The notes beneath the pieces were generated by a model. The model saw only the letters and a program-made list of their open reading frames with translations. It ran no database searches and was not told the origin of the DNA. This document shows positions 2,737 to 44,651 of a stretch of 45,190 bases of DNA, piece by piece (the stretch's first letter is position 1; every line of letters begins with the position of its first letter). The translations under genes and the position numbers were made by a program. Origin of the DNA: a phage; sequence record PZ050807.1. One strand, 5' to 3'.

Positions 2737-2740
2737 GTGG

Positions 2741-5310: not shown

Positions 5311-5352
5311 CGTCAAATCCTCATATTAAAAAAGGGCGTTCCCTTCAGAACA

Positions 5353-5390
5353 CCCCCAATATAATGCAACCAATCTCGCAATGCAACCAA
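5353..5390 (-). promoter_or_regulatory. Sigma70-type early promoter (minus strand) of the TTGGTTGCA family
   Basis: Minus strand: TTGCAT(5386..5381)-17 nt-TATATT(5363..5358); two TTGGTTGCA copies. Confidence 0.55.
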
Positions 5391-5394
5391 TTTA

Positions 5395-5715
5395 TTAGAA
5401 GAAATTTGGGTCGCTCATCACATCCACAAGATAAAGGTTGTTAAGGCGGTTGCCGTAATGGCCTGGCGTGCGCTGACGGCACACAACAGCGTAACCAGGG
5501 GGGATGGTATTTCCGGTCGCCAGAATCCACGCCACGCGCGCGCCGTTTAGTGATTTACCGTTGTATTCTATGCGGGTGCCGCCATCTGCAGTGTTAAGGC
5601 TGCCAATCTTCTGACCGGTAGAATTGAGACGGATAACACCAGTCTGGCTATCGTAATTAAACAGTTGTTTGGTCAGTGCTACCGAAAAATCAATTGGATC
5701 AAAGATAGTGTTCAT
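5395..5715 (-). CDS. HNH_3-like (homing-endonuclease-like) protein, possibly degenerate
   Basis: Resembles the HNH_3 pattern (GARVAWILATGNTIPPGYAVV...GNRLNNLYLV) but the expected His residues are replaced. Confidence 0.4.
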   Translation of the reverse strand: MNTIFDPIDFSVALTKQLFNYDSQTGVIRLNSTGQKIGSLNTADGGTRIEYNGKSLNGARVAWILATGNTIPPGYAVVCRQRTPGHYGNRLNNLYLVDVMSDPNFF

Positions 5716-6428: not shown

Positions 6429-7885
6429 TTGCGGCCTCGCTTCTTCTCTTTCATATATTCCATCAGTTCATCCTGGATGTCGCGCTTACCATCACGGCGG
6501 CTTGCCACTAACTCGTCGAGCGTGCCGCGGGCCTGGATAATGTAGACGAATACCGGGCGCGGGTGTCCGGCCTGCATCTGGCGCACCGGTCCGATACGTT
6601 CGACGATCTGCGCGAAGTGCTCAAAGTTCCACGTATCCGAGAAGATAGCGAGGTGGTGTCCGCCGTCCTGTAAGTTAAGACCGTGGCCTGCCGATGCCGG
6701 GTGTGCAAACATGATCGGAATCTCGCCCCGGTTCCACGCTTCCATATCCTTAACGCCTTGCTTGCCCTTACCCATTGCGACACCCTGCGGGAATTTCTTC
6801 TTAAGGCGGGCTAGGTCGTGCTTGTACTGGTAGGCCACAAGCAGCGGTGCGCCGTTAAGTTCTTCTACGATACTTTCCAGGGCGTCAAGTTTGGCGTCGT
6901 GGATTTTCTCCCACTCGTCGGTCCGCTCGCCGTCGTCGTCAACCTTATACACAGCGCCAGATGCAAGCTGGAGGCATTTAATCGTCTTAGCGGCAGCGTT
7001 GGCGGCCTCCACTGTTCCGCTTTCCAGTTCGGCAAATAGCTCGCTCTCGAACTGGTCGTAAATCTTGCGGGCTTTCTTCGGCAGGTCAACCAGCACCGGC
7101 GTGTAAATCGGCTTGTCACACCCGAAGTATTCAGCCGCGTCAACCGTTAGCGAAATATCAGCCAGCTTTGCGTGAATCTCTTTTTCGGAGTTTTTCAGCG
7201 GGGAGTGCTGCATAGTGAAGCTGCCAGGCGCAACCGGCTTACTTATGAACCAGCGGTCGGTGAATGCTTTATAGCTACTGCCGAGGCGTTCGCCACCGTC
7301 AACAAACCAGTTCTGCCCCCACACATCCTTAAGCCCGTTGGGTGCTGGCGTACCGGTCAGGTTAATCCAGCGCTTGACGTGCTTATGTGCGATCGCCGCC
7401 AGTGCGCGAGCACGTTTACTGCCCTGCTTACTGCGGTAGCCTTTCAGCTTAGTGGACTCATCGGCAACAACGACCGTAAAAGGCCACTCCTCGCCGCAAT
7501 AGTTCACAAGCCACTCAACCACATCATAGTTGAGGCACACGACGTTCGCGCCGCTCTCAAGCGCTGTAATGCGGTCCTTCTCCGGTCCGGTGCCGTCTAC
7601 TACCTGAAGCGATGAGAATCCCCATTTATCTTGTTCCGGGGGCCACGTACCGGACGCAACGCGCAACGGGGCCAGCACCAGCACGCGGTCTTCTCCGTGG
7701 TTCAGTATGCCGGTCTGGAACATTTTGTTCAGCGCCCACATGGTAGCGCCAGTCTTTCCCGATCCCATCGTCGCCCAGATATTACAGCGGGCGTGTTTAA
7801 TGATGAAAGACGTGATTAACTTCTGGTACTCGCGCCTGCGAAAACGTGCCATCTTGTTACGCCTTTTTCCAGACTTCTGTTTCAT
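6425..7885 (-). CDS. Superfamily-2 (SNF2/DEAD-like) DNA helicase
   Basis: Walker A GSGKTGAT, DExx box VVADESTKLK, C-terminal helicase motif HPASAGHGLNLQ; start uncertain (ATG 7885 or 7852). Confidence 0.7.
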   Translation of the reverse strand: MKQKSGKRRNKMARFRRREYQKLITSFIIKHARCNIWATMGSGKTGATMWALNKMFQTGILNHGEDRVLVLAPLRVASGTWPPEQDKWGFSSLQVVDGTGPEKDRITALESGANVVCLNYDVVEWLVNYCGEEWPFTVVVADESTKLKGYRSKQGSKRARALAAIAHKHVKRWINLTGTPAPNGLKDVWGQNWFVDGGERLGSSYKAFTDRWFISKPVAPGSFTMQHSPLKNSEKEIHAKLADISLTVDAAEYFGCDKPIYTPVLVDLPKKARKIYDQFESELFAELESGTVEAANAAAKTIKCLQLASGAVYKVDDDGERTDEWEKIHDAKLDALESIVEELNGAPLLVAYQYKHDLARLKKKFPQGVAMGKGKQGVKDMEAWNRGEIPIMFAHPASAGHGLNLQDGGHHLAIFSDTWNFEHFAQIVERIGPVRQMQAGHPRPVFVYIIQARGTLDELVASRRDGKRDIQDELMEYMKEKKRGRK

Positions 7886-8078
7886 GGTGCCAATTCCTCG
7901 TCGTAGCGGTCCAGTTAAATTCGTGCCCCACATGCACGCCGGTCGCTCGGAAGCCTTTAAACTTCTTCCAGCACACAGTTAACGGCAGCGGCTCGCGCAT
8001 TGCGGCGATATACCATACGCGATCGCCGGGTTTGCAGTCGCCCAGTGTGGTAAGGCGGTAATGTTCTTTCATCGTCAT
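7857..8078 (-). CDS. Hypothetical protein, 73 aa
   Basis: ORF with RBS GGAGA upstream. Confidence 0.4.
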   Translation of the reverse strand: MTMKEHYRLTTLGDCKPGDRVWYIAAMREPLPLTVCWKKFKGFRATGVHVGHEFNWTATTRNWHHETEVWKKA

Positions 8079-8114
8079 GTCTCCAAAAAAGGCGGGACTA
8101 GCCCGCCATGTTGA

Positions 8115-8288
8115 TTATTCGCGTTCTTCACGATAGCGGCGCTGCCGTTCTCGTTCGGCCTTGTTACGGCACGATTTACACTGCGCACGATACCCGTCGG
8201 GGCTACGTGCTGTTTTGCCAGTGTACTTATGAAATTGCGATAGCGGTTTAACACAGCCGCATTGGCTGCAACGTTTTTCTTCAATCAT
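8115..8288 (-). CDS. Small zinc-ribbon protein
   Basis: CSQCGC ... CKSC cysteine pairs; RBS GAGG; start chosen at MIEEK. Confidence 0.4.
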   Translation of the reverse strand: MIEEKRCSQCGCVKPLSQFHKYTGKTARSPDGYRAQCKSCRNKAERERQRRYREERE

Positions 8289-8327
8289 CTTAAATGCCTC
8301 GTTAGTCCTAACCTGCACACTATATCT

Positions 8328-8606
8328 TTATGCGACCAATTCCGCAACCAATAAATCAGCGTCGTGAATGTTGTCGATTACGCGAACGTCGGCCCCGCGC
8401 TTCGCCATGCGCTCATGTTCACGTACCTGGTGCGGCTTCGGCTTACCACCGGGGCGCTTCACTTCAACGAATACGACTCTGCCGTTGATGATGATAATCA
8501 GGTCGGGGGCGCCGGTACGCCCTTCCCATGCCATTTTACGGCAGAATCCACCTGCCTCTTTTACCTCTTTCATCAGGTGACTTTGCACCTTGCCTTCAGG
8601 AGTCAT
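8328..8606 (-). CDS. VRR-NUC domain nuclease
   Basis: PDLIIIINGRVVFVEVKRPGGKPKPHQ matches the VRR-NUC (PD-(D/E)XK) signature; TAATG overlap with the polymerase stop. Confidence 0.6.
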   Translation of the reverse strand: MTPEGKVQSHLMKEVKEAGGFCRKMAWEGRTGAPDLIIIINGRVVFVEVKRPGGKPKPHQVREHERMAKRGADVRVIDNIHDADLLVAELVA

Positions 8607-10894
8607 TATTTTCTATACCTGTACATGATGTCGCCTTCAGCGGCGAGCGGGAAGCCCTTAGCCCACACCGGCAGATCGCACATTAACCGGCATAACTCTT
8701 CGGTCGTGTAATCGTCCGTGTCCGGCACTTCGGTGATTAATTCATCGTGCACCGACAGGACGATTTCGTATCCCGCCGCTTCGACACCAGGCATAGACCA
8801 TGCGAGAATATCGCGACACAGCGCCTGCACGATGTTCTCCGTCAGTTTGCCGCCGTAGGTGTACTGGAAGCCCCACTGGCGCGTCGTCTGATTCTCGCCC
8901 TGATATTTAATGCGGGTGCTGGTTTTCTTCTTGCCAGTATCCTCATCGATTTCAGTCGTGACAGACAGCGCAATCCCCGGATAGCTCATGATACGACCGG
9001 ACGGCAACTCCACTTTCAACCACCAGCCTGGCGCGTCCGGGTCGTCCCGCTCATCGTCAAACGTAGGGTCGTGCTTCGCCTTCGTGCGCATGATTTTAAG
9101 CGCCTGTTTGCCGTCTGGACGCACATTAGCACCGGCCCAGTATGATTTACCTGGATTGCGGATTGCGCACAGCACAGCATCTTCCAGTTCGGCCCAGAAT
9201 CTAACCGTTTCCGGGTGGGACTCACGCCACATACGCTTGATCGCATCGCAGGTAAGCCACACGTTCTTCGGCAGGATGTAAGTCGGTCGCTCGTCTTTCT
9301 TGCCGGGCTTCGGCGGACGCTTCGCTTCATTAATCCTCGCGTACTCGTACCCGCGTTTCGCTGCGGCCCATATGTGATCCGGGAACGTGCCTTTCATCAC
9401 GTCTGCCATCGCATACAGGTCAAGACCCAGGTTTTTGGCAAACTGCAAGAACGCCGCAACGCCGCCGCCGTAGCCGAGGCCCAATTCACACGCCTTACCG
9501 ATCTGGCGGAGGTCTTTGCGGTTGGCCTTGATATAATCCGGGTCGAGGCCGAACATCTTACCGGCAGTTTCGCAATAAATATCGCGTCCCGCCTTAAAGA
9601 CCATCAACGCAGTTTTCTCGCCCGCAATCCAGGCAAGGCCGCGTCCTTCCACGTTGGAGTAGTCCGCTACAACAAACTTCTTACCCTTAGCCGGGATAAT
9701 GCAGCCGCGTACGGTCGATGCTGTCAGCTTAGATATGTCGTACGCCCAGTGTGCGGTCCCGCGTAATAGGGAATTGATGCCGTTGGTTAGCATGTGCGAC
9801 CGGACCCAAAACGACACGTCGCTTTCACCATCACGGCGCTTGATCTTGCCTTCGTGGTCGTCGCTGTACTCGCCACGCGCCAGGTTTTGAGGCTGAAAAC
9901 CTTTACCGGCCCAGCGCAATGTTCGTTTAGCACCACCATACTGAAGACAACCACGGCGGCGACCGTCAGACGACAGACCGTTAACGAGCGGATTGTATTT
10001 GGTCGACGCCGTTGATGACGCACCGAGGCGCATTTCAATCAGAACTTTGCCCTCGTCCGGGAAGTCCGGGTCTTCCAGCAAATCATTCAGTGTGGATTTC
10101 TGCGCGTTATGGATAGTGAAAGCTGGCGCAATATCTCGTAACAACGGCAGGAAATCATTTCCGGTCAGCTTACCGCCAAACTTCTCCATCGCTTCTTCTT
10201 TCAGTTCTTCCTTGTGCGCTTCAACGGCCTTGATGGCGGCGTAGGCCAGTTCGGTGTCCACGTTGAAGCCGCGGTCATTGATCAACTGGTCAATTGCCAG
10301 TATCTGGTCTTCCTTCGGAGTATTACCCCAATCCGGGATACGCCAGTACACTTCACGCATCGCGATAATATCGAAGCGTGCATACTTGAGGAATTTGGCC
10401 CACTCTTCCGGGTGAGTCTCGCGAGTGTAGCGACGGACTTTGTAAGTCTTCGGCGTTGGCTTACAGAATCGCTTAATCAGCGCCTTGCCCGCTTTATCTT
10501 TCGCATGTTCAGCGTCAACGCCCAATACCTGGCATTGCATGTCAAGGCTGCCGGGGAGGGCGTGACGGAAGGCCATAATCATGGTGTCTTCGATCTGGCA
10601 AACCGGCAGGTCAATACCCCACTTCTCACGGATAACCAGGCGGTCAAACAGGAGGCCGTTAGCCATTACGATTTTTGCTTTCTTGCGGACTACCGCACGC
10701 AATGCCTTACGCAGTTCACTCGGCATCTTCGGCGATTCAGTAGCGTCCCACGTCTGAACACGGCCTTCATCAATGGCGTAGGTGCAGACCATGATTTCCG
10801 TGGTTGGGTGTTCTGCATACGCGTATGCGCCGACCTTCTTCAGATCAACGCCGCTAAACGTTTCGGTATCGAGGAATAGTCGTTCGAAGTTCAT
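8606..10894 (-). CDS. DNA polymerase, family A (T7/Pol I-like, with 3'-5' exonuclease)
   Basis: Exo I motif FLDTETFSG; motif B RQIGKACELGLGYGGG; motif C VLSVHDEL; start set at MNFERLF (ATG 10894). Confidence 0.9.
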   Translation of the reverse strand: MNFERLFLDTETFSGVDLKKVGAYAYAEHPTTEIMVCTYAIDEGRVQTWDATESPKMPSELRKALRAVVRKKAKIVMANGLLFDRLVIREKWGIDLPVCQIEDTMIMAFRHALPGSLDMQCQVLGVDAEHAKDKAGKALIKRFCKPTPKTYKVRRYTRETHPEEWAKFLKYARFDIIAMREVYWRIPDWGNTPKEDQILAIDQLINDRGFNVDTELAYAAIKAVEAHKEELKEEAMEKFGGKLTGNDFLPLLRDIAPAFTIHNAQKSTLNDLLEDPDFPDEGKVLIEMRLGASSTASTKYNPLVNGLSSDGRRRGCLQYGGAKRTLRWAGKGFQPQNLARGEYSDDHEGKIKRRDGESDVSFWVRSHMLTNGINSLLRGTAHWAYDISKLTASTVRGCIIPAKGKKFVVADYSNVEGRGLAWIAGEKTALMVFKAGRDIYCETAGKMFGLDPDYIKANRKDLRQIGKACELGLGYGGGVAAFLQFAKNLGLDLYAMADVMKGTFPDHIWAAAKRGYEYARINEAKRPPKPGKKDERPTYILPKNVWLTCDAIKRMWRESHPETVRFWAELEDAVLCAIRNPGKSYWAGANVRPDGKQALKIMRTKAKHDPTFDDERDDPDAPGWWLKVELPSGRIMSYPGIALSVTTEIDEDTGKKKTSTRIKYQGENQTTRQWGFQYTYGGKLTENIVQALCRDILAWSMPGVEAAGYEIVLSVHDELITEVPDTDDYTTEELCRLMCDLPVWAKGFPLAAEGDIMYRYRK

Positions 10895-11061
10895 TGTTTC
10901 ACCCTTACCACGGCCTCGGCGTCCCCTTTCAGAGAGTAGATGCCGTCGGTTATTGTGATTATGTCGTCGTTCTGTTTCACTTCGGCAACCGTGAAGTATT
11001 CGCCCAGGAATTTGGACCACACGCGCATTCCCGGTTTCACATCTTTAGCTTTAATTCTCAT
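10891..11061 (-). CDS. Small protein, 56 aa, translationally coupled to the DNA polymerase
   Basis: My own translation MRIKAKDVKPGMRVWSKFLGEYFTVAEVKQNDDIITITDGIYSLKGDAEAVVRVKQ; stop overlaps the polymerase ATG (ATGA); RBS AGGA; absent from the ORF track because it is under 60 aa. Confidence 0.35.
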   Translation of the reverse strand: MRIKAKDVKPGMRVWSKFLGEYFTVAEVKQNDDIITITDGIYSLKGDAEAVVRVKQ

Positions 11062-11075
11062 TACATTGTCCTATG

Positions 11076-11099
11076 AAAAAGCCCGCATAAAGCGGGCTT
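11076..11099 (-). terminator. Intrinsic terminator (minus strand)
   Basis: Hairpin AGCCCGC-TTTAT-GCGGGCT followed by TTTTT on the minus strand. Confidence 0.55.
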
Positions 11100-11117
11100 G
11101 AGTAGTGGGCTTTGCCC

Positions 11118-11891
11118 TTAGCGGCGTCGACGTTTACGTGGTGCTTCGTCTTCGTCATCGTCGTCATCTTCATCGCGTGACTTGCGACGTTTACGCGGCT
11201 TATCGTCTTCATCGTCGTCATCTTCATCACGGCGGCGCTTAGACTTGCGCGGTTTTTCATCTTCATCATCGTCGTCACGACGTTTTGACTTTTTGGATTT
11301 ACGCGGTGCTTCGTCTTCGTCATCATCCAGGTCGTCGTCAGAGCAATATGCACCGCCGCCGCCACCGAAGGAATCCCCATCATCACGGAAGCGCATACCC
11401 AGCAGACCACAGCCTAAGCCTTTGCCGTTGGTATTGTTCCAGGCCCAAATATCTAAGGAAACGTTGCAATAGCAACCGGAATAGATTTCCTTCCCTTCGA
11501 TTTCGTCGCCGTCGATGGTCAGACCCTGCTCCGTCTGCTTCTCGCCTTCGGAAGTCTGGATGATCGGCTGTTTGAATGATTTAGCGTTGATATACAGCTT
11601 ACCTTCAAACTCTTCCGTTACTTCTTCACGCTCATCTCCATCTCGAACGGCACATTCTTTCGAATCCTGCGCGTAGTGGCGGTCCATCCACTTATCGGCG
11701 TTCTTCTCAGACTTCAGTTTTTCGGTGAGCACTGCGCGTGCCGCCGCTTCCACTTTGTCCACCTGCGGATCTTCTTTATCAAGAATAATCACCGCACGAT
11801 ATGCCGGTTTTTGTCCATCCTGTTTAGGGGTATCACGCTCCCAAATTTTCAGGAAGCATACACGTACATTTTTCAGGTTGACTTTAGCCAT
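11118..11891 (-). CDS. Putative ssDNA-binding protein (gp2.5-like) with a long repetitive charged C-terminal tail
   Basis: N-terminus MAKVNLKNVRVCF resembles gp2.5-type SSBs; acidic C-terminus; start at ATG 11891 with RBS GAGGAA. Confidence 0.45.
   Translation of the reverse strand: MAKVNLKNVRVCFLKIWERDTPKQDGQKPAYRAVIILDKEDPQVDKVEAAARAVLTEKLKSEKNADKWMDRHYAQDSKECAVRDGDEREEVTEEFEGKLYINAKSFKQPIIQTSEGEKQTEQGLTIDGDEIEGKEIYSGCYCNVSLDIWAWNNTNGKGLGCGLLGMRFRDDGDSFGGGGGAYCSDDDLDDDEDEAPRKSKKSKRRDDDDEDEKPRKSKRRRDEDDDDEDDKPRKRRKSRDEDDDDDEDEAPRKRRRR
11121..11335. repeat. Imperfect tandem repeats of about 50 nt encoding (D/E)-rich/PRKSKRR peptide units
   Basis: Visible in both DNA and protein: DEAPRKSKKSKRRDDDDEDE / KPRKSKRRRDEDDDDED / DKPRKRRKSRDEDDDDDEDE / APRKRRRR. 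Confidence 0.5.
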
Positions 11892-11987
11892 TTTCCAATT
11901 CCTCATTTCACATGTATCGGGGTTATTAGAAGCCACCCCGTCCGGCTTGGTTGCTAATGTACTTGGTTGCGTTTCCGCGGTCAAGTG

Positions 11988-12222
11988 TTATTTATCAAAA
12001 AGTTTTAAAATCAGGTCGAGATATTTGTGCAGCCACACCAGTGGAGGGCGGTGCACGTTGTTTTCCATCCAGTTCAAACAGGCTTCGTTATAGCCGTCGT
12101 CCCATAAGCGGGATGGGTGGCGAATCATCCAGGCCAGCGCCAGCAGACCGCCGCAGGTATGTACTACGAATCCCAGCGCCGCAAGCGGCAGCACCATAAT
12201 CATTGCCAGAATCTTATTCATC
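11988..12222 (-). CDS. Small membrane protein, 78 aa
   Basis: Hydrophobic segment ILAMIMVLPLAALGFVV; start chosen at MNKIL. Confidence 0.4.
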
Positions 12223-13644
12223 GCCCAAATCCTCGTCGCTTGCTTCTTGCCATTCCGGGCGCGGGTCGTCAACTGGTGCCAGGACCGGTTTCGCCGGCGC
12301 ACGCGTGATTTTATCTTGCAGTTTCGCCCACACTTTCGGTTTCTCATCCTTCAGCACCTTCTCGGCATCAGTAGGGCTGATTAATGATTCCTTGTACATC
12401 AGGTCGCGCTTGATCCGGGCCGTTGTGAATACGGCGATAACTTCGCTTTCATCCTTCCACTTACGCGCACCTTCACGACCAGCTACCAGCTTCAGGCCCA
12501 GCGCTTCGCCGTCACCGGCTAACACTGCTTTGAATACGGCAGCCTCGATCGCTTTGATGTGCTGGCGCATGGTTTCCAGGCCGTCGTAAGCCTTCTTCAG
12601 TTCTTCCGTGGTCATAGCACCGGCTGGCGCTTCTTTCTTTCCACGCTTCGCACGTCGGGCAGCTTTCCGAGCTTCGAGGTCCATGTTCTGGTCGTGGTTT
12701 TTGCATTCTTCCTCGGCGGCAATGCTTACATCGTCACCCAGGTCTTCGTCGGTTGCCGTTGGTGGCGTTATTGTGTCGATGGCGGCTTTAGCGCGGGCAC
12801 TACATTGGTCCGCAAATCGACACCACTGACACGCATCGGCGCTCGGACGGAAGTCTGCACGGGTGAGATTCTTCTTACCCTTAGCGAGGGCATCCAGGGC
12901 GGCTACTGCGCGTTTTGCTGCGTACTTGGCGAAGATTTCCAGTGCTTCCACCGAAATATCCCACTCCGACGCCCCGCCGCAATACGGCTGGAATATGACC
13001 AGGCGCACGGTTGTTATGTCGTACATCTTTTGCAGCTTGCGCAGCAGTCCGAGCGCATACAGCATAAGCTGTTTGTTCTCTTTCGCCTCGACCTTATGGC
13101 GTCCGGTCTTCAGGTCGCCCACAATGAGCATGTACGTGCCGTCGGTCTTCTTCATCACCATAACCATATCGGCAGTACCGAAGGTCTTGATCGCTTCGCC
13201 GTCAATCTCGTAGCCTTTGTGCAGGACGCGAGTCAGATCCGCGCGCATCTCAAGCTGGACAAACTCGGCAACTTCAAGCAGCGGTCGCCAGTGGTCGATG
13301 TACGCGTCGCACTGTTTCACCATGTCGTCAGTTACCAGGATGGCGTCCTTAGGTGCTTTCGCTGCCGCTTTAACTGGTCCTTTACCCTGATTTTCGACGT
13401 AGCACCCTTTATATGTCTTCGCCGTGATGTGGTCTTCGCCTGCAATGATGCGGTTTAGTACCACTTCAGATACGGTGTGCATACTCGTACCGTTGATCGC
13501 GGCTTGCCCGGATTCGTTCGGAATACCTTTCTCCACCACCAGGGCGGCGGGACACCCCATCCATTTTTTAGCGCCGGATGGGCCAAGTAATGAGTGTTCT
13601 GTATTACTGCCGGATTGCGTCTTGCGCTTCGCTTTGATAGCCAT
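12214..13644 (-). CDS. PD-(D/E)XK exonuclease, Cas4/RecB-like with Cys cluster (recombination exonuclease)
   Basis: Nuclease core TADMVMV...LIVGDLKTG...QLMLYAL; cysteines in CQWCRFADQC; long charged C-terminal extension. Confidence 0.7.
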   Translation of the reverse strand: MAIKAKRKTQSGSNTEHSLLGPSGAKKWMGCPAALVVEKGIPNESGQAAINGTSMHTVSEVVLNRIIAGEDHITAKTYKGCYVENQGKGPVKAAAKAPKDAILVTDDMVKQCDAYIDHWRPLLEVAEFVQLEMRADLTRVLHKGYEIDGEAIKTFGTADMVMVMKKTDGTYMLIVGDLKTGRHKVEAKENKQLMLYALGLLRKLQKMYDITTVRLVIFQPYCGGASEWDISVEALEIFAKYAAKRAVAALDALAKGKKNLTRADFRPSADACQWCRFADQCSARAKAAIDTITPPTATDEDLGDDVSIAAEEECKNHDQNMDLEARKAARRAKRGKKEAPAGAMTTEELKKAYDGLETMRQHIKAIEAAVFKAVLAGDGEALGLKLVAGREGARKWKDESEVIAVFTTARIKRDLMYKESLISPTDAEKVLKDEKPKVWAKLQDKITRAPAKPVLAPVDDPRPEWQEASDEDLGDE

Positions 13645-13832
13645 TATTCGACCCTCGTAAATTGAGCAATATAATAATCATGCTTAATTCCTGCTTTCGC
13701 CGCGGCGTTATTCATTGTCGCGGCCAGTTCTTTCGCTTGCATCCAGCAACAATTCCAGTTCTGATTCATAATTATTTCCGGCTGTTCGTCGCCGGTGTTA
13801 CGGCAGCGAAATAAAACAAAGAAAATACTCAT
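13644..13832 (-). CDS. Hypothetical small protein, 62 aa
   Basis: TAATG overlaps at both ends imply translational coupling. Confidence 0.35.
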   Translation of the reverse strand: MSIFFVLFRCRNTGDEQPEIIMNQNWNCCWMQAKELAATMNNAAAKAGIKHDYYIAQFTRVE

Positions 13833-14083
13833 TATGGCGTCTCCCAACGGTCAATAGTTTTTGCTTCAGACCCAACTGCAAAGCGAACATATTCGTGATT
13901 CGAGTCCGCCCATAAATAAAAGTCTGGATTAGCGAAGGTCGTGCGTTTAATTTGTGCCGGTGTTTCCCGCTTCTTACTAATTACGGCAACGCGGGATTGA
14001 AAGGGGCCGGTGCGCTCGAATAGCCAGTAGTACGGGCGCTGGTCGCGCGAGTCCACCGCTTCAATTAATGTGAATCGTGCCAT
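13832..14083 (-). CDS. Hypothetical protein, 83 aa
   Basis: ORF in the early operon. Confidence 0.45.
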   Translation of the reverse strand: MARFTLIEAVDSRDQRPYYWLFERTGPFQSRVAVISKKRETPAQIKRTTFANPDFYLWADSNHEYVRFAVGSEAKTIDRWETP

Positions 14084-14096
14084 TGTCTCGTCTCTT

Positions 14097-14124
14097 TAAA
14101 AATAGGCCCGCAGAATAGCGGGCC
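14097..14124 (-). terminator. Intrinsic terminator or attenuator (minus strand) after the first early gene
   Basis: Hairpin GGCCCGC-TATTCT-GCGGGCC followed by TATTTTT on the minus strand. Confidence 0.5.
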
Positions 14125-14131
14125 TGGTATA

Positions 14132-14632
14132 TTAGTCTTCCAGTTCGAAATAGGTTTCGACAATTTCTTTCAGTTCGGTGTGGAAGTCTTCAACGTCGTC
14201 ATCTTCCAGCTTAGCCACAGTCTTGATTTCGAACGATTCCAGCAGGTCGTCAAATTCGTCGTTCGCGTCGTCATCGTCGCCGCCTGCAATGATTGCCGCG
14301 TATTGTGCAATTTCATCGCGCATTTCTTTCAGTGGATCGGCGTCTTTCTTAGCCTTGCCTTTGCCCTTGCCTTTGGCTGGCTTTTCTTCCGGTTCGTCTT
14401 CGTCGTCATCTTCTACGACTTCTTTTTTCGCCTTGCCCTTAGCCGTGGACTTCTTAGCAGGTTTCTTATCTTCCTGCTCGTCATCTTCGTCTTTGGCTTC
14501 TTCTTTCTTAGCCTTAGACGGTTTCTTATCTTCCTGCTTACCAACGGCAGCGCCATGGGTTTCGTAATGTTTAGCGATGGTTTCCAGTGCTACTACGCCG
14601 CGAGTAATCAGATTCAGGATTTGCTCAAACAT
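14132..14632 (-). CDS. Highly charged low-complexity protein (first gene of the leftward early operon)
   Basis: Start at MFEQIL (ATG 14632, RBS GGAGA); long K/E/D-rich region and acidic C-terminus (DDDDANDEFDDLLESF...EDDDVEDF). Confidence 0.5.
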   Translation of the reverse strand: MFEQILNLITRGVVALETIAKHYETHGAAVGKQEDKKPSKAKKEEAKDEDDEQEDKKPAKKSTAKGKAKKEVVEDDDEDEPEEKPAKGKGKGKAKKDADPLKEMRDEIAQYAAIIAGGDDDDANDEFDDLLESFEIKTVAKLEDDDVEDFHTELKEIVETYFELED

Positions 14633-14678
14633 GGTGTGTCTCCGTTTAGTTAAAAGTGAATGTCGTTTCGACGAGGTG

Positions 14679-14708
14679 AATAATAGATTGGTTGCAGGAT
14701 GGGTGTCA
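14679..14708 (-). promoter_or_regulatory. Leftward early promoter: -35 TTGACA, 18-nt spacer containing GCAACCAAT, -10 TATTAT
   Basis: Minus strand: TTGACA(14708..14703)-18 nt-TATTAT(14684..14679). Confidence 0.55.
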
Positions 14709-14715
14709 ACAACTA

Positions 14716-14753
14716 ATTTAAAAAAAAATCCCCGAAGCAAAACGCAACGGGGA
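14716..14753 (-). terminator. Terminator-like hairpin plus T-run (minus strand) upstream of the leftward promoter
   Basis: Minus strand: CCCCGTTGCGTTTTGCTTCGGGG followed by TTTTTTTTT. Confidence 0.4.
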
Positions 14754-14823
14754 TAACCATAAGAGACAATGAGACTGGTTTTATTATTACACGCGCGCGC
14801 ACCCGTTTCAATATACAAAACAG

Positions 14824-14852
14824 TTGACACCGGTTTAATTTGGGTGTAGTTT
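14824..14852 (+). promoter_or_regulatory. Candidate rightward promoter: TTGACA-17 nt-TAGTTT
   Basis: Consensus -35; weak -10. Confidence 0.35.
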
Positions 14853-14883
14853 CTTTGGTCATTAACCAACAGGAGACTGAATT

Positions 14884-15177
14884 ATGAATACGACTAAATT
14901 GAATGCTTTGTTAGATATGGTTGAGAATGGTGTTGATGTTGGTGCGGCCCGCGACGCTATTAACGTTGCGTTCAAAGACCTGGCCTACAAACTGGAATTA
15001 CTGAACGGTACGGCGGCGAGCAAGCTGCAAAAGCATAACGAAGAAATGGAAGAATACAAAAAGCAGGTTATCAGACTGCGCGAAGAGGGTAAGTCCTGGG
15101 CAATGATTGCCGAGCTAACAGGCATTAATCAAAGCACTGTACGCTCCTGGGTACGCAATGCTAAAACCGCTAAGTAA
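14884..15177 (+). CDS. Small HTH DNA-binding protein (putative transcriptional regulator)
   Basis: C-terminal helix-turn-helix SWAMIAELTGINQSTVRSWVRN; RBS AGGAGA. Confidence 0.55.
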   Translation: MNTTKLNALLDMVENGVDVGAARDAINVAFKDLAYKLELLNGTAASKLQKHNEEMEEYKKQVIRLREEGKSWAMIAELTGINQSTVRSWVRNAKTAK

Positions 15178-15189
15178 GGACTTGAGAAG

Positions 15190-17454
15190 ATGAGAAATAT
15201 AGAATTTGCGATCACACCCCCCGCTAAGAAAGGCGAATCTGCGGTAGCTCATAACCAGTCCATGACTACCGCCGAGTTTTTCGAATTTATCCAGGATGCA
15301 CCGGTAGTGTCGTCAGTTTGCATTAACGGTACTGAAGATAAAAAAGAATATGCGCGACGTAAGCGTAAAGGCGACGGCATTGTGGCTACAACCGCCGATG
15401 GCACGCGTAAAAAGACTGGCGTGGTTAGCCGCTCGATCCTGTTCTTCGACCTGGACCGTGCTGACAACCGCACACTTACCCGCTGCCGCAGGGCTTTCCG
15501 CAAGTCCGGCCTGGAATATGTCTACCACACCACCACCGGCGACCGCCACCCGTTGAAAGACGGCAAGCGCTGTGTGCGTTTCCTGGTGCTGACAAACAAG
15601 CCAGTTCCGGCGGAAGACTTGGGTCGCGCGCAGGCTGCACTGCTTGAGCAACTGGGTCTTACCGACGCGGGCTTTGATGACTGCTCGAAAGACACAAACC
15701 GCCTTATGTACCTGCCCCACCAGCAGGCTAAGGTCGAGTGTCATGAGGGTGAACGCGCTAACGTGCGTCGTCTGCTTCGCCTGGCTGACAAGATGGGTAT
15801 TGAGCAGGAAACGTTTCGCCGTGAACTGGTGCAGGGCGACGACGAGCAGATGAACGGCATCCTCGACTGGTGTTTCCAGGCTGGTTTTGAGCCGTTACCA
15901 TCCGGGCGCGGTTATGAAGTACCGTGCCCAAACGAACATCTGCACTCTGGTGAAGGGTCTACCGCTATCATGCTTAAGGATGGCGAGATTCGTTTCAAAT
16001 GTATGCACACCGGCAACGGATGCTGTTCTGAACTGAACAAACACCAACACCTGGCGCTGCGAATGATTGGTATCCCGGATATTTATAACGTGGAACCTCA
16101 CAACATGTCGCGCAAACAGATCTCGGCAATCCTGCCCGGACTGGACGATGAAGAAGTGGACGCGCAGTATGAGCACATGGTCGATCTGGTTGGCGAAGGT
16201 GAGGATTATGCGTCCTGTACTGACGCAGACCTGGAAGACGAACCAACGGCACTGTTCTCTAAACACGACCCGATCATCGAAGGTCTGATTAACTTCAAAT
16301 CGACCTGGTACGCAGCGGGTGAGTCGAACATTGGTAAATCCTTCTACATCCTGGGTCAGATGGCTGCCGTTGCCGCGGGCATCCCGTTCGGGGGCGCGAA
16401 GGTCGTCCAGTCGCATTGCTTCTACTTCGATGCGGAAGGTGGCGAGGCGTCCATCCAGCGTAAAGAAGCATTGCAGATTAAATATGAGCATGATCTTGAC
16501 AAGCTGCACATTGTTGACCTTCAGGCACGCGGCTGGGATATTACGAGCAAATCCGGCCTGCGTGAAGTAATCAGCTTTATCAACCGCACAGCGGATGGGG
16601 AACCGGTCGGCCTGGTGGCGTTCGACTCCCTTAACCAGACCGTGGCCCTGCGCTCGGCAGATGCCAAACCGTTCGACGAGAACAACGCAAGCGATATGGG
16701 TGAGATTGTCAAAGCGCTGAAGTCCATTGCGGAAAACACAGGAGGCAGTGCGGGCGTCATTCACCACCCGGCGAAGGGTGCAAACGGCAGCCGATCCCCG
16801 CGTGGGTCCGGTGCGCTACATGGCGCGGTGGATTCTGCATTCTTCCTGGAACAGCCAGACGAGAATCAGCCCGGACAGCTTAACCTGTATCATGAGAAAG
16901 CCCGTAACGGCGTAAAACAGGGTCCACGCGGCTTCGTACTACTTAAGTGCAAAGTGTCCATTAACGAGCGCAAGTCCGACACGTTCGAAGCGCACCAGTC
17001 CACTAACCCTGGTCCAGACTTCGGCGATGTGGTTGCCGGTTGGGACGTCAAGCCAATCCAGGCCACCCCGCGTGATGAGACTCTGTACCTTGTACCGGTA
17101 GCTCTGGCCCCGTTCGCTATCGAACAGGCGAAGGCCGCGGGCAAGCAGGCTGTTAAGGAAGAAAACCCCGCCGGTCCGCGCAATGAAAAAGAGAAAGTGC
17201 TTTACGCAGCGCTCGAAGCGTTGATGGAAGAGAATCCGGGACACCATGGCTTCAGCAAATCGGCAATCGTCCGCAAAGCCGGACTGGCGAAAGGTGGCAC
17301 ATCGACGAAGCCAATAGACGATATGCGTGAGCGCGGAATCATCGGCTTTTACAAAGACCCTGACACCGGGGCCATTTACGGGTCGTCGAATCTGGTTATC
17401 AATTCACAAATACCTATGCAATTGACGGCGACGGACGACGACCTTAAAGATTAA
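15190..17454 (+). CDS. DNA primase / replicative helicase fusion (primase-like N-terminal domain plus P-loop ATPase)
   Basis: Walker A GESNIGKSFYILG, Walker B LVAFDSLNQ; N-terminal primase-like region with Cys/His cluster (CPNEHLHSGEGS...CMHTGNGCC). Confidence 0.8.
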   Translation: MRNIEFAITPPAKKGESAVAHNQSMTTAEFFEFIQDAPVVSSVCINGTEDKKEYARRKRKGDGIVATTADGTRKKTGVVSRSILFFDLDRADNRTLTRCRRAFRKSGLEYVYHTTTGDRHPLKDGKRCVRFLVLTNKPVPAEDLGRAQAALLEQLGLTDAGFDDCSKDTNRLMYLPHQQAKVECHEGERANVRRLLRLADKMGIEQETFRRELVQGDDEQMNGILDWCFQAGFEPLPSGRGYEVPCPNEHLHSGEGSTAIMLKDGEIRFKCMHTGNGCCSELNKHQHLALRMIGIPDIYNVEPHNMSRKQISAILPGLDDEEVDAQYEHMVDLVGEGEDYASCTDADLEDEPTALFSKHDPIIEGLINFKSTWYAAGESNIGKSFYILGQMAAVAAGIPFGGAKVVQSHCFYFDAEGGEASIQRKEALQIKYEHDLDKLHIVDLQARGWDITSKSGLREVISFINRTADGEPVGLVAFDSLNQTVALRSADAKPFDENNASDMGEIVKALKSIAENTGGSAGVIHHPAKGANGSRSPRGSGALHGAVDSAFFLEQPDENQPGQLNLYHEKARNGVKQGPRGFVLLKCKVSINERKSDTFEAHQSTNPGPDFGDVVAGWDVKPIQATPRDETLYLVPVALAPFAIEQAKAAGKQAVKEENPAGPRNEKEKVLYAALEALMEENPGHHGFSKSAIVRKAGLAKGGTSTKPIDDMRERGIIGFYKDPDTGAIYGSSNLVINSQIPMQLTATDDDLKD

Positions 17455-17461: not shown

Positions 17462-17542
17462 GCGCATTGGTTGCCAATATGGTTAATTTGTGCGCGCATT
17501 GGTTGCCAGATTGGGCATTAAATCTATATCGCATTGGTTGCC
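17462..17542 (+). repeat. Three direct iterons GCGCATTGGTTGCC spaced about 35 bp apart (candidate origin or operator array)
   Basis: Repeat copies at 17462, 17494 and 17530, immediately after the primase-helicase stop. Confidence 0.6.
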
Positions 17543-17580
17543 GTGTAGTGCTAAATAAGTGAATAGTTATGCAAAATAAG

Positions 17581-17755
17581 TGCATAAAACAAACGGGACA
17601 AAAACGGGACAAACGACAAACGGGACAAAACGGGACGTCCCGCCGTCCCCCTCAGGAGTGGCGCGGGTTTGAGGCAAACGGGACAAGCGGGACAGACCAC
17701 AGTCTTTCAGACTAGACGGGGGGTATGGTCCCCCCTCCGTCTGAGACTGCATAAA
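17581..17755. repeat. Structured non-coding element A: ACGGGACA iterons, CGGGACGTCCCG palindrome and a long stem-loop; paralogue of 34104..34440
   Basis: Direct comparison with copy B: about 150 bp near-identical. Confidence 0.6.
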
Positions 17756-17907
17756 AGCTCTGGTTGCATAATCAACGGCAGCATAGTGAAAAATGCGGCG
17801 GGGGTAGATCTCGGCAACCAATGCGAGTTGAAGAGTGGAGAGTGAAAAATGCAGTTTGCAATTGCAACTCATAGCGATCAGCATTTTCATGCGCGTGATT
17901 AATATTG

Positions 17908-17936
17908 GTTGCACCCACCTTGGCACCTTGCTATAT
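17908..17936 (+). promoter_or_regulatory. Rightward promoter of the TTGGTTGCA family: -35 TTGCAC, 17 nt, -10 TATATT
   Basis: TTGCAC(17908..17913)-17 nt-TATATT(17931..17936). Confidence 0.5.
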
Positions 17937-17965
17937 TGGCTGCACACCATCATGAGGACTGAACA

Positions 17966-28449: not shown

Positions 28450-28479
28450 TGTTGTTTCCTCGTTTGTTGGTGTGCAACC

Positions 28480-28508
28480 AATATATTGCAACCAATTAGC
28501 CAATGCAA
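28480..28508 (-). promoter_or_regulatory. Early-type promoter (minus strand): -35 TTGCAT, 17 nt with ATTGGTTGCAA, -10 TATATT
   Basis: Minus strand: TTGCAT(28508..28503)-17 nt-TATATT(28485..28480). Confidence 0.5.
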
Positions 28509-33775: not shown

Positions 33776-34089
33776 TTGAGGCGGCGCGACGCTTCTATGG
33801 TCCGCCGCCACCGTCCGAAGACCTTGCCGCTAGTTTATGGGGTGCGGCCCCCGAAGATATTTGTCCGCCAGTTGCATTATGGCCTGATAACGTACAGGTC
33901 GTTGCCGTTTTCACTGACTGCTCAACGCAGTGGCGCACCGGTTTTAACGGAGCATACGGCATCGACTACGGCGTGCTGGAATGGCTATTTAAAATGCACG
34001 GCATCGAAAATGAGAAGCGAGCTTTTAAAGATATCAAGTTAATGGAGCGTATTGCACTCGACGAAATTGCAGCACAACAGGCCGGGTAA
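33766..34089 (+). CDS. Tail assembly chaperone extension (gpT-like), expressed as a G-T fusion by -1 programmed frameshift at A_AAA_AAC
   Basis: Heptamer A AAA AAC at 33766..33772; the -1 frame is open from 33766 to the TAA at 34087..34089. Confidence 0.5.
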   Translation, partial: KKLIEAARRFYGPPPPSEDLAASLWGAAPEDICPPVALWPDNVQVVAVFTDCSTQWRTGFNGAYGIDYGVLEWLFKMHGIENEKRAFKDIKLMERIALDEIAAQQAG

Positions 34090-34103
34090 TTCCGGCCTTT
34101 TTC
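34080..34103 (+). terminator. Intrinsic terminator after the GT chaperone ORF
   Basis: GGCCGG-GTAATT-CCGGCC followed by TTTTT. Confidence 0.6.
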
Positions 34104-34106
34104 ATA

Positions 34107-34430
34107 GCGGGACAGCGGGACGTCCCGTTTTTGTCCCGCTGTCCCGCCCCGCCAAAAACTGCATACCTATTCAGAAATACTGCATAAAACCAAAACGGGA
34201 CAAAAACGGGACAAGCAGGACGTCCCGCCTCAAAAGTGCATATCTATGCAGTTTTCATGCATAAAACGAACGGGACAAAAACGGGACAAACTGCAAGCGG
34301 GACAGAGCGGGACGTCCCGCCGTCCCTGCCAGAGCTGCCGCGGGTTTCAGCCGATCGGGACAGGCGGGACAAAGCCAAGTCTTTCAGACTAGACGGGGGT
34401 CAATGGCCCCCTCCGTCTGAGACTGAATAA
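34107..34430. repeat. Structured non-coding element B: GGGAC/GTCCC iterons, palindromes and a conserved stem-loop; paralogue of 17581..17755
   Basis: Several ACGGGACA iterons, three GGGACGTCCC palindromes, 13-bp inverted repeat GCGGGACAGCGGG/CCCGCTGTCCCGC, hairpin at 34378..34425. Confidence 0.6.
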
Positions 34431-34492
34431 GGTTGGTTGCAAAATGACTGATACAATACAAACGGCAACTTGCATAAAAAGGGGACTGCATA

Positions 34493-44599: not shown

Positions 44600-44628
44600 A
44601 ATATAGTGCAACCAATACGTGATTGCAA
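44600..44628 (-). promoter_or_regulatory. Early-type promoter (minus strand): -35 TTGCAA, 17 nt with ATTGGTTGCAC, -10 TATATT
   Basis: Minus strand: TTGCAA(44628..44623)-17 nt-TATATT(44605..44600). Confidence 0.55.
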
Positions 44629-44651
44629 CCAATTTATGAGGAGTTTTCGCT

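What the first reader, a model, noticed from the sequence alone, without database searches (positions are those of the whole stretch)
34104..34440. Structured GGGAC-iteron element wedged between the tail chaperone and tape-measure genes
About 390 bp of non-coding DNA separates the GT chaperone stop (34089) from the tape-measure ATG (34493); these genes normally abut. The gap holds tandem ACGGGACA iterons, three copies of the palindrome GGGACGTCCC, a 13-bp inverted repeat (GCGGGACAGCGGG ... CCCGCTGTCCCGC), TGCATA-type near-palindromes (TGCATATCTATGCA) and a long imperfect stem-loop at 34378..34425. Roughly 150 bp is near-identical to a second element at 17581..17755. Such iteron-plus-palindrome architecture is typical of protein-binding arrays (origins, partition or packaging sites, operator banks) or a structured RNA. 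No annotated feature class explains it.
Basis: seen in the sequence. Interest (0 to 1): 0.8.

Follow-up and report, generated by a model that had tools for sequence, protein, structure and literature searches.

The report
Duplicated iteron-and-hairpin control module in a phage
The 403-bp gap before the tape-measure gene is a second copy of a conserved non-coding module (short repeated protein-binding boxes, an unchanging hairpin and a start signal) whose original sits just after the phage's helicase-primase gene; it most likely acts as a replication origin and/or late-gene control region, and nobody has described it.

Summary
The window is a whole Dhillonvirus (HK578-like coliphage) genome. 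The gap 34090-34492 (e1) holds 17 of the window's 64 GGGAC cores, a perfect 15-bp inverted repeat, two exact GGGACGTCCC palindromes plus one 1-mismatch copy, and a 49-nt hairpin. Its 3' 212 bp is 80.6% identical (not near-identical) to 17557-17772 (e2).

Both copies occur in all 159 Dhillonvirus records. The CGGGACA boxes and the hairpin stem never vary, while flanks diverge about 20%.

e2 is ancestral. Related Guernseyvirinae phages with the orthologous helicase-primase carry the same architecture right after that gene, but with a different box in each lineage (GGGGAGA, TCCGCACA, AGGGA, TTGCGAGT). One such lineage also placed a second copy among its late genes.

The helicase-primase is predicted as RepB'-like AEP primase, RepA-like helicase and C-terminal winged helix. 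A small HTH gene precedes it.

Best reading (about 0.4): an iteron-type origin, duplicated like P4 ori/crr. e1 also carries an invariant extended -10 promoter for the tape-measure operon. Close rival (about 0.33): an operator/promoter bank for late genes. Structured RNA, small ORFs and packaging sites are unlikely.

Side finding: every module ends in ACGGCARC, an octamer about 10-fold over-represented genome-wide in this whole phage group.

The parts
34079..34103 (+). Intrinsic terminator (AGGCCGG-gtaatt-CCGGCCT + TTTTT) overlapping the GT chaperone stop codon
   Evidence: Terminator scan. The 13-nt insertion is peculiar to this lineage in alignment A2.
34107..34147 (.). Perfect 15-bp inverted repeat built from boxes (GCGGGACAGCGGGAC / GTCCCGCTGTCCCGC), enclosing the palindrome GGGACGTCCC at 34117-34126
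   Evidence: dG -35 kcal/mol, z -7.7. Its core CGGGACGTCCCG(T/A)T is present in nearly all of the 13 phages. It is annotated as terminator or repeat_region in HK578, WF5505 and rolling.
34160..34266 (+). A+T-rich TGCATA-motif segments (34160, 34181, 34237/34245 palindrome, 34258) flanking a half-module: boxes at 34196 and 34207 plus the near-palindrome AGGACGTCCC at 34217-34226
   Evidence: (internal duplication 34145-34214 ~ 34221-34289).
34271..34326 (+). Main box array: four direct CGGGAC(A) boxes at 34271, 34282, 34298 and 34308 (spacing 11, 16, 10 bp), then inverted GTCCC at 34314-34318 and 34322-34326
   Evidence: The boxes are invariant in 13 phages.
34356..34371 (+). Two further direct boxes (34356, 34365), after a 29-bp G+C-rich spacer containing the conserved GCTGCCGCGG
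34378..34426 (.). Long imperfect hairpin; stem sequence nearly invariant (one G-to-T change, in WF5505 e1), only the loop varies freely
34449..34457 (+). Extended -10 promoter element TGATACAAT (no -35), predicted promoter of the tape-measure and tail-tip operon
   Evidence: Invariant in 13 of 13 phages. The standard scan misses it because it needs a -35.
34462..34469 (+). ACGGCAAC, the module's copy of the genome-wide octamer ACGGCARC, 24 nt before the tape-measure ATG (RBS AGGGG at 34478-34482)
17463..17543 (+). Three tandem CGCATTGGTTGCC motifs upstream of e2 (17463, 17495, 17530). The last supplies the -35 (TTGCCG, 17538-17543) of a conserved promoter-like site whose -10 is AATAGT (17562-17567), reading into the boxes
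   Evidence: 13 of 13 phages.
17568..17694 (+). e2: TATGCA/TGCATAAAA A+T-rich segment; direct boxes at 17594, 17605, 17621, 17631; palindrome 17632-17641; inverted GTCCC 17645-17649; spacer; boxes at 17679 and 17688
17700..17749 (.). e2 hairpin, with the same stem sequence as in e1
17775..17782 (+). ACGGCAGC octamer following TTGCATAAT
17813..17825 (-). Inverted copy of CGCATTGGTTGCC closing the e2 region
17909..17937 (+). Sigma-70 promoter TTGCAC-N17-TATATT for gene 17966 and the lysis and structural genes
   Evidence: (12 of 13 phages).
14884..17454 (+). Candidate trans-acting genes. The first is a 97-aa HTH protein (Sigma70_r4_2-like). The second is a 754-aa helicase-primase made of a RepB'-like AEP primase, an AAA_25 RepA-like helicase and a C-terminal winged helix

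Best explanation
e1 (34090-34492) and e2 (about 17545-17790) are two copies of one cis-acting DNA module. In order, the module has an A+T-rich TGCATA segment, an array of 7-bp CGGGACA boxes (direct, about one helical turn apart, plus inverted copies), a G+C-rich spacer, two more boxes, a long hairpin with a fixed sequence, and the octamer ACGGCARC.

Shown: the module is a conserved, lineage-specific array whose ancestral place is directly downstream of the helicase-primase gene.

Inferred: the boxes are iterons bound by a product of the adjacent replication operon. That product would be the small HTH protein and/or the winged-helix C-terminus of the helicase-primase. Binding opens the A+T-rich or hairpin region. 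The RepB'-like primase / RepA-like helicase then enters and starts at or near the hairpin and the ACGGCARC signal. On this reading the module is the phage's origin of replication.

e1 would then be a second origin or a P4-crr-like helper copy that arose in the Dhillonvirus ancestor. Because e1 interrupts the late operon, it also carries its own extended -10 promoter (TGATACAAT), which restarts transcription of the tape-measure and tail-tip genes after the terminator or inverted repeat at its 5' end.
For: 1. Universality and constraint. Both copies are in all 159 Dhillonvirus records. Boxes and hairpin stem are essentially invariant in 26 aligned copies (one substitution seen, in WF5505 e1), while flanks are 77-82% identical.

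2. Position. e2 directly follows the HTH plus helicase-primase operon. The same holds in SE1, Otaku, TS33, L142, L143 and L144.

3. Lineage-specific boxes on a conserved scaffold: GGGGAGA in SE1 (5 of 8 genome copies clustered), TCCGCACA palindromes in Otaku, AGGGA in TS33, TTGCGAGT in L143-type phages. Box changes coincide with divergence of the helicase-primase N- and C-terminal domains (18-36% identity vs 50-80% in the helicase core) and with replacement of the small HTH protein.

4. Predicted folds. The C-terminal 117 aa is a winged helix (MarR/ORC2-WH hits, prob 0.9-0.99). The N-terminus is an AEP primase whose second-best PDB match is RSF1010 RepB' bound to its ssiA hairpin (E 7.6e-4, prob 1.0). 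The helicase is AAA_25/RepA-type. From established knowledge, RSF1010 oriV is iterons + A+T-rich region + ssi hairpins, and P4 needs two iteron arrays (ori and crr) bound by the winged-helix domain of its primase-helicase.

5. The hairpin is selected as a structure. The two paralogous copies in L143-type phages differ by 5 compensatory pairs out of 19, with none broken. Equivalent hairpins in L143 and Otaku have z about -3.7.

6. In this lineage e1 and e2 share derived states, which indicates gene conversion or a common binding partner.

7. No boxes lie at the HTH operon's own promoter, so the binder is not a simple Cro-like autoregulator.

8. Every module ends in ACGGCARC, a DNA-level signal about 10-fold enriched across these genomes at about 1 per kb, as expected of a priming or loading signal.
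Against: No experiment and no replication data exist. The origin reading rests on anatomy and analogy.

The extra copies, in two independent lineages, both sit inside late operons. They are in the same orientation as transcription and immediately upstream of an RBS and start codon. That arrangement fits a promoter or regulatory element at least as well as an origin.

In Jerseyvirus and Kagunavirus the equivalent spot is a short divergent promoter region with a Cro-like gene.

Phage L144 has a swapped AEP domain (33-38% identity) but an unchanged hairpin. This argues against strict primase-hairpin co-specificity.

GC skew shows nothing at e1 or e2; it follows gene strand only. ACGGCARC orientation does not flip at e2 (9:9 to the left, 20:6 to the right).

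SE1 manages with a single copy.
Confidence: 0.4

Rival explanations
1. Late-gene transcription control region. The boxes are an operator or upstream-activating bank for a phage DNA-binding protein, for example the early sigma-region-4-like HTH. That protein switches on, or holds off until titrated by replication, the promoter at the 3' end of each module. The inverted repeat and hairpin insulate the promoter from upstream read-through. e2 heads the lysis and structural operon. e1 restarts transcription for the tape-measure and tail-tip genes.
For: Both copies, and the second copy in L143-type phages, lie in transcription orientation just upstream of gene starts, with ACGGCARC 15-25 nt before an RBS and ATG. 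e1 has an invariant extended -10, TGATACAAT. A terminator or inverted repeat precedes e1. e2 is flanked by conserved promoter-like sites. In Jerseyvirus and Kagunavirus the homologous position is a classic divergent promoter and operator region with a Cro-like HTH gene, and it shares the word GTGAATAGT with Dhillon e2 and SE1. The small HTH family changes when the box changes. Otaku boxes form 19-bp palindromes typical of dimeric HTH operators.
Against: Nine to seventeen sites spread over 150-270 bp, plus a sequence-invariant 49-nt hairpin between sites and promoter, is unusual for a bacterial activator or operator. In e2 the segment equivalent to the e1 promoter is weak (TTGCAWAAY), and the strong promoter lies 160 bp further on. 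The phage's other promoters use a different motif (ATTGGTTGCA) and carry no boxes. This rival may well be true together with the origin reading, as in the T4 and T7 origins, which are promoters (established knowledge).
Confidence: 0.33
2. Structured RNA. The module is transcribed, from the TTGCCG-18-AATAGT site at e2 or by read-through at e1, and works as RNA. It could be an RNase III-type processing or stabilising hairpin separating mRNAs of different abundance, a put-like antiterminator, or a protein-sponge RNA.
For: The hairpin is stable as RNA (dG -27 and -29 kcal/mol, z about -3) and about 19 bp long with internal loops. Compensatory changes occur between paralogous hairpins in L143-type phages. 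A conserved promoter-like site reads into e2. The position between highly and lowly expressed tail genes would suit differential mRNA decay.
Against: Rfam has no match at gathering score or at a meaningful E-value. The Dhillonvirus stems show no covariation at all and are frozen in sequence, which points to sequence-specific recognition. Boxes occur in both orientations and as palindromes, as DNA sites do. Both strands fold equally well. The GGA/CsrA-sponge idea fails because the L143 box TTGCGAGT has no GGA. There is no U-tract after the hairpin, so it is not an intrinsic terminator.
Confidence: 0.12
3. Small protein-coding genes, as some GenBank records annotate across the element, or a packaging (pac/cos) site.
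For: Stop-free stretches of 48-130 codons cross the element, and some records call 'hypothetical proteins' there. Some GenBank records start or end near the elements.
Against: The open stretches change strand, frame and extent between phages, and 1-nt indels separate the boxes. G+C-rich boxes lack stop codons by composition. The genus packages by the headful mechanism, and record ends fall at assembly breaks in the two-copy repeat; Kente, for example, is merely split inside e1.
Confidence: 0.04

Closest known systems
RSF1010 (IncQ) oriV with RepC, RepA and RepB'
   Same: Both have direct iterons next to an A+T-rich segment and a G+C-rich spacer, followed by a conserved hairpin. In RSF1010 the hairpins are the ssi sites recognised by RepB'. 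The phage helicase-primase combines a RepB'-like AEP fold with an AAA_25/RepA-type helicase.
   Different: The three IncQ functions are fused, or partly replaced by a small HTH protein. The boxes are 7 bp rather than 20-bp iterons. There is one hairpin per module, both on the same strand, rather than ssiA and ssiB on opposite strands. There is no sequence similarity, and function is untested.
Satellite phage P4 ori and crr, bound by the alpha primase-helicase
   Same: P4 has two separated arrays of the same short repeat in one genome, and a multidomain primase-helicase whose C-terminal winged helix binds them. Here the C-terminus is also predicted to be a winged helix.
   Different: P4 alpha has a Toprim primase and an SF3 helicase, which are not homologous to this protein. 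The distance here is 16.5 kb, with the second copy inside the tail operon and carrying a promoter. Binding has not been shown.
Phage T4 and T7 origins that are promoters plus an unwinding element
   Same: A promoter is coupled to an easily opened region, and there are several copies per genome. This would reconcile the origin and promoter readings.
   Different: Those origins have no iteron arrays or fixed hairpins and depend on transcript priming.
Operator banks of temperate-phage switches (lambda OR/OL; Cro-like HTH)
   Same: Both use short repeated or palindromic sites for an HTH protein near promoters. The Jerseyvirus and Kagunavirus relatives have exactly such a region at the same locus.
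   Different: Here there are 9-17 mostly direct sites. No boxes lie at the HTH gene's own promoter. The phage is virulent.

Membership tests
Iteron-type replication origin | Array of several repeats of one short initiator-binding sequence | tested here: met
   There are 9 GGGAC cores in e2 and 17 in e1 (14 as full direct or inverted CGGGACA boxes), spaced 9-16 bp apart and invariant across phages.
Iteron-type replication origin | Adjacent A+T-rich unwinding region | tested here: inconclusive
   TGCATA-rich segments of about 70% A+T lie next to the boxes. No unwinding calculation or assay was done.
Iteron-type replication origin | Linked to the gene of its initiator; specificity co-varies with the initiator | tested here: met
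   e2-type arrays directly follow the helicase-primase gene in 7 lineages. Box sequence changes together with the terminal domains of that protein and with the HTH partner. e1 itself is not linked.
Iteron-type replication origin | Initiator binds the repeats; the element supports initiation | not testable with these tools
   This needs EMSA or footprinting, marker-frequency analysis, or a plasmid replication assay.
RSF1010-type ssi (primase recognition hairpin) | Conserved hairpin recognised by an AEP RepB'-type primase | tested here: inconclusive
   The hairpin is present and frozen in sequence. The primase has a RepB'-like fold. However, an AEP-domain swap leaves the hairpin unchanged.
Sigma-70 promoter (extended -10 class) | TGnTAtAAT-like element at a suitable distance from a gene start, conserved | tested here: met
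   TGATACAAT at 34449-34457 is invariant in 13 of 13 phages and lies 36 nt before the tape-measure ATG. The transcription start has not been mapped.
Intrinsic (rho-independent) terminator | G+C-rich stem-loop followed by a T-run | tested here: met
   This applies only to 34079-34103. The large hairpin 34378-34426 and the 15-bp inverted repeat lack a T-run, so for them the feature is not met.
Any Rfam RNA family | Match to a covariance model at gathering score | tested here: not met
   There were no matches in the whole window. The best sub-threshold hits are spurious miRNA models.
cos/pac packaging site | Terminase recognition or cleavage site defining genome ends | tested here: not met
   The genus packages by the headful mechanism (PMC9022532). 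Record ends near the elements are assembly or author choices.

The most novel reading that the evidence does not exclude
The module is the replication origin of the Dhillonvirus and Guernseyvirinae phages. In this reading a fused RepB'-RepA-winged-helix helicase-primase, with its small HTH partner, is recruited by fast-evolving lineage-specific iterons and starts at a fixed hairpin. The octamer ACGGCARC, which ends every module, is about 10-fold over-represented at about 1 per kb, and is conserved across all these genera, would be the enzyme's sequence-specific priming or loading signal used genome-wide. That would be a new kind of long primase or helicase recognition word in coliphages, with the duplicated origin doubling as the late-operon promoter.
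Probability: 0.15. Interest if true: 0.8.

Novelty: new variant of a known kind. Interest (0 to 1): 0.58.

Why it matters
Dhillonviruses and Jersey-like phages are among the most frequently isolated coliphages and Salmonella phages, and they are used in therapy collections. Even so, neither their origin of replication nor their late-gene control is known.

This module is the obvious candidate for one or both, and it is easy to test with the proteins encoded next to it. The lineage-specific box swaps on a fixed scaffold offer a natural system for studying how initiator or regulator specificity evolves.

The two-copy repeat also explains why assemblies of these phages break there. The ACGGCARC octamer is a separate, undescribed genome-wide signal that deserves its own study.

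Tried and rejected
- Rfam at gathering and at E-value thresholds found nothing real.
- The standard sigma-70 scan found no promoter, because it requires a -35. A custom scan across the alignments was needed.
- Literature searches on Dhillonvirus, HK578, SSL-2009a and Jerseyvirus for repeats, promoters or origins found no description. The only relevant item is an OLD-escape study that calls gp45/gp46 of HK578 replication-initiation genes.
- Searches for copies in E. coli genomes or plasmids, looking for satellites or hijackers, found none.
- A 14-mer scan of IMG/VR gave mostly chance hits.
- PDB sequence search gave no hit for the helicase-primase.
- The CsrA-sponge idea (GGA in every box) is rejected because the L143 box has no GGA.
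- A physical genome end near 17861, suggested by the PTXU06, WFI and Zar3M record ends, is rejected in view of headful packaging.
- Global concerted evolution of e1 and e2 is rejected. Orthologues cluster together (e1-e1 82-93%, e2-e2 86-96%, e1-e2 73-79%), and only local conversion tracts are shared.
- GC skew is uninformative.
- A DnaA-box reading of TTATGCA fails, because the variable positions fall in the essential CACA part.
- ACGGCARC is not a codon artefact. It occurs in the sense strand (28 sites) and the antisense strand (18 sites) of genes and in several codon phases.

Full report
**What the window is.** The window matches Escherichia phage Ioannina and Dhillonvirus LM40P1 at 98-99.7% identity and all other Dhillonvirus (HK578-like) siphophages at about 83%. 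It is essentially a complete genome, circularly permuted relative to the Ioannina record. The layout is:
- tail-fibre genes at 42-3129 (+);
- replication and modification genes at 3384-14869 (-);
- a rightward operon of a 97-aa HTH protein (14884-15177) and a 754-aa helicase-primase (15190-17454);
- a 510-bp non-coding region;
- small genes, holins, endolysin, terminase, head and tail genes up to 43350 (+).

**The observation.** The T frame of the G/GT chaperone is open from 33775 and stops at 34087-34089. The tape-measure ORF starts at 34493. The gap is therefore 403 bp.

CGGGACA occurs 18 times in the window (5.85 +/- 2.1 expected, no shuffle reaches 18), and 15 of these are in the two elements. 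Of the 64 GGGAC cores, 17 lie in the gap and 9 in 17595-17732.

GGGACGTCCC is exact at 34117, 34309 and 17632 (0.03 expected). The 'third copy' in the gap is AGGACGTCCC at 34217-34226. The inverted repeat is 15 bp and perfect (34107-34121 / 34133-34147). As RNA it folds at -35 kcal/mol, z -7.7.

The hairpins at 34378-34426 and 17700-17749 have z about -3 as RNA and -3.3 / -3.8 as DNA.

BLAST of the gap against the window gives 34234-34445 = 17557-17772 at 80.6% over 217 bp (E 7e-51). It also gives an internal duplication, 34145-34214 ~ 34221-34289. So e1 consists of a box inverted repeat plus about 1.5 copies of the e2 module. An intrinsic terminator (34079-34098 plus TTTTT) overlaps the chaperone stop.

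**Conservation.** Both loci are present in all 159 Dhillonvirus records, at 77-82% identity for all but the four near-identical Ioannina/LM40P1 records. GenBank annotations there are limited to 'terminator' (HK578, WF5505), 'repeat_region' (rolling, jat) and occasional hypothetical ORFs.

In alignments of 13 phages per locus (A1 and A2) every CGGGACA box is invariant in sequence and place. The hairpin stem, CAGTCTTTCAGACTAGACGGGGG / CCCCCCTCGTCTGAGACTG, is identical in essentially all 26 sequences, and only the loop varies. The stems offer no covariation, so the constraint is on sequence as well as on pairing.

The GGGACGTCCC palindrome at 34309 is lineage-specific. Most phages have GCGGGACAGCACCCCCGTCCCGCC there, at both loci. 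The window has GGGACGTCCCGCCGTCCC at both loci.

e1 copies cluster with e1 copies (82-93%) and e2 with e2 (86-96%), while e1 against e2 is 73-79%. The duplication is therefore old. Even so, the window lineage shares several derived states in both copies: a 1-nt deletion between boxes 1 and 2, the palindrome tract, and the hairpin 3' arm. This indicates local gene conversion or a shared partner.

Stop-free stretches across the element change strand, frame and extent between phages, so coding is unlikely.

**Promoters.** A custom scan over the alignments finds three conserved sites:
- an extended -10 TGATACAAT (34449-34457), invariant in 13 of 13 e1 copies, 36 nt before the tape-measure ATG;
- TTGCCG-18-AATAGT (17538-17567) reading into the e2 boxes, 13 of 13;
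- TTGCAC-17-TATATT (17909-17937) before gene 17966, 12 of 13.

The phage's other promoters share the motif ATTGGTTGCA, once as the -35 and once in the spacer. Three CGCATTGGTTGCC copies precede e2 and one inverted copy follows it.

**Relatives outside the genus.** The helicase-primase has full-length orthologues at 43-49% identity in Guernseyvirinae-type phages. In every one examined, a 350-600-bp non-coding region directly follows that gene with the same order of parts but a different box:
- Salmonella phage SE1: GGGGAGA, with 5 of the genome's 8 copies clustered there;
- Serratia phage Otaku: TCCGCACA / TGTGCGGAA palindromes;
- Hafnia phage TS33: AGGGA;
- metagenomic L143-type phages: TTGCGAGT.

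SE1 even keeps the word AGTGAATAGTTAT before its boxes. L143 and Otaku have long imperfect hairpins after the boxes (z -3.7 and -3.8); SE1 and TS33 have weaker ones.

More divergent Dhillon-like phages keep CGGGACA and the same hairpin. These are L142 (68% identity) and L144, in which the first 200 residues of the enzyme and the N-terminus of the HTH protein are swapped.

e2 is therefore the ancestral copy. SE1 has only one copy.

L143-type phages have a second copy after their MuF-like head gene, again in the direction of transcription and just upstream of an RBS and ATG. Their two hairpins differ by 5 compensatory pairs of 19 with none broken. This shows that the hairpin is selected as a structure.

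In Jerseyvirus and Kagunavirus the same locus holds a divergent Cro-like HTH gene and a short promoter region with TGTGAATAGT repeats.

**The candidate binding proteins.** The 97-aa protein matches Sigma70_r4_2 above Pfam's cut-off. In L143 and Otaku it is replaced by non-homologous HTH_3 proteins.

The helicase-primase core (residues 351-650) is 50-80% identical to the outgroups. Its N-terminal 250 and C-terminal 100 residues are only 18-36% identical.

AlphaFold models gave two results. Residues 638-754 form a three-helix plus beta-wing winged helix. All Foldseek hits are winged-helix DNA binders such as MarR family proteins, the ORC2 winged-helix domain and histone H1 (prob 0.9-0.99, E about 0.01). 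Residues 1-330 form an AEP primase. The best hits are cyanophage S-2L PrimPol (1.4e-5) and RSF1010 RepB' in complex with its initiator hairpin (7.6e-4). The middle domain is AAA_25/RepA-type.

An OLD-escape study independently treats HK578 gp45/gp46 as replication-initiation genes.

**The octamer.** Each module in each lineage ends with ACGGCARC, a few to about 40 nt after the hairpin. In the window these copies are at 17775 and 34462.

The octamer occurs 49 times in the window against 4.6 +/- 2.0 expected. It has no extended flanks. It lies on both the sense strand (28 sites) and the antisense strand (18 sites) of genes and in several codon phases.

It is 7-10-fold enriched in SE1, L142, L143-type and L144 phages. 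It is also frequent in the Kagunavirus genome (31 copies in 41 kb) and the Jerseyvirus genome (25 in 43 kb), where CAACGGCA and, in the Jerseyvirus, ACGGCAGC rank among the most over-represented octamers at about 6-fold. No paper in the library contains the word.

The strand bias is 31:18 overall and 20:6 across the late region. It does not flip at e2.

**Interpretation.** What is shown: e1 and e2 are two copies of a conserved, non-coding, sequence-constrained module. Its short boxes behave like binding sites of a rapidly evolving DNA-binding protein encoded next to the ancestral copy.

What is inferred: its function. I favour an iteron-type origin, at about 0.4. The reasons are its fixed linkage to the initiator-type operon, the co-variation of box sequence with the terminal domains and HTH partner, the order A+T-rich segment, iterons and hairpin, and the RepB'/RepA/winged-helix make-up of the enzyme. 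These recall RSF1010 oriV and the P4 ori/crr pair (established knowledge, not tested here). On this reading e1 is a second origin or helper array. It had to bring its own promoter because it splits the late operon.

The main rival, at about 0.33, is an operator and promoter bank for the late genes. This fits the orientation and the gene-proximal placement of all copies, the conserved promoter in e1, and the Cro-type switch at the same locus in Jersey-like phages.

The two readings are not exclusive, since T4 and T7 origins are promoters. An RNA role (about 0.12) is weakened by the absence of covariation in Dhillonvirus, by boxes in both orientations and by the Rfam result, although the hairpin is clearly structural. 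Small ORFs and packaging sites are rejected.

**Novelty.** The kind of element, an iteron or operator array with a hairpin, is known. This family, its lineage-specific box turnover, its duplication into the tail operon and the associated octamer are undescribed. I rate it a new variant of a known kind, of moderate to good interest, and directly testable.

Noticed in passing
window, 49 sites genome-wide (e.g. 441, 17775, 24113, 34462, 42769); also L137, L142-L146, L152, L153, L155, L156: The octamer ACGGCARC is about 10-fold over-represented (49 observed vs 4.6 +/- 2.0 expected). It has no flanking consensus and occurs on both the sense and antisense strands of genes in several codon phases. 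The strand bias is 31:18 overall and 20:6 in the late region. It is similarly enriched in SE1-type and L143-type phages and frequent in the Kagunavirus and Jerseyvirus genomes. No paper in the library contains the word. It may be a priming or loading signal or a Chi-like signal.
   Followed up: partly
window 3908-3933, 5366-5391, 8332-8352, 28474-28496, 44608-44633 (-); 17904-17943 (+); 17463-17543 and 17813-17825: The motif ATTGGTTGCA occurs in pairs that form the phage's sigma-70 promoters (TTGCAA-N17-TATATT, with the second copy in the spacer). Three tandem CGCATTGGTTGCC copies plus one inverted copy flank e2 without an obvious -10. Related words (ATGTTGGCTGC, GGTTGGTTGC) occur in SE1, TS33 and L143. 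This looks like a second, conserved operator system.
   Followed up: partly
L158 (Escherichia virus TH11, MT446389.1) 15429-15670 and 15944-16185: This unverified record has e1 tandemly duplicated together with the last 148 nt of the chaperone T frame. It therefore has three hairpins in the genome. This is either real array expansion or an assembly artefact at the repeat.
   Followed up: no
L144 10001-10600 and 9541-9990 (metagenomic Dhillonvirus, protein P0004): There is a mosaic swap. The N-terminus of the HTH protein and the first 200 residues (AEP primase domain) of the helicase-primase are replaced by a variant only 33-38% identical to every other variant retrieved here. The rest of the enzyme, the boxes and the hairpin are unchanged.
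   Followed up: partly
window 34079-34103: The canonical intrinsic terminator after the GT chaperone gene comes from a 13-nt insertion found only in the Ioannina/LM40P1 lineage. Other dhillonviruses have only the weak CGGGACGTCCCGTTTT hairpin at that spot.
   Followed up: yes
phage database records BEK2-2, Maverick, Kente, PTXU06, WFI, Zar3M: Several GenBank Dhillonvirus records begin or end inside or next to e1 or e2. This is most likely because assemblers break at this two-copy, roughly 200-bp repeat, so the record ends are not physical genome ends.
   Followed up: partly
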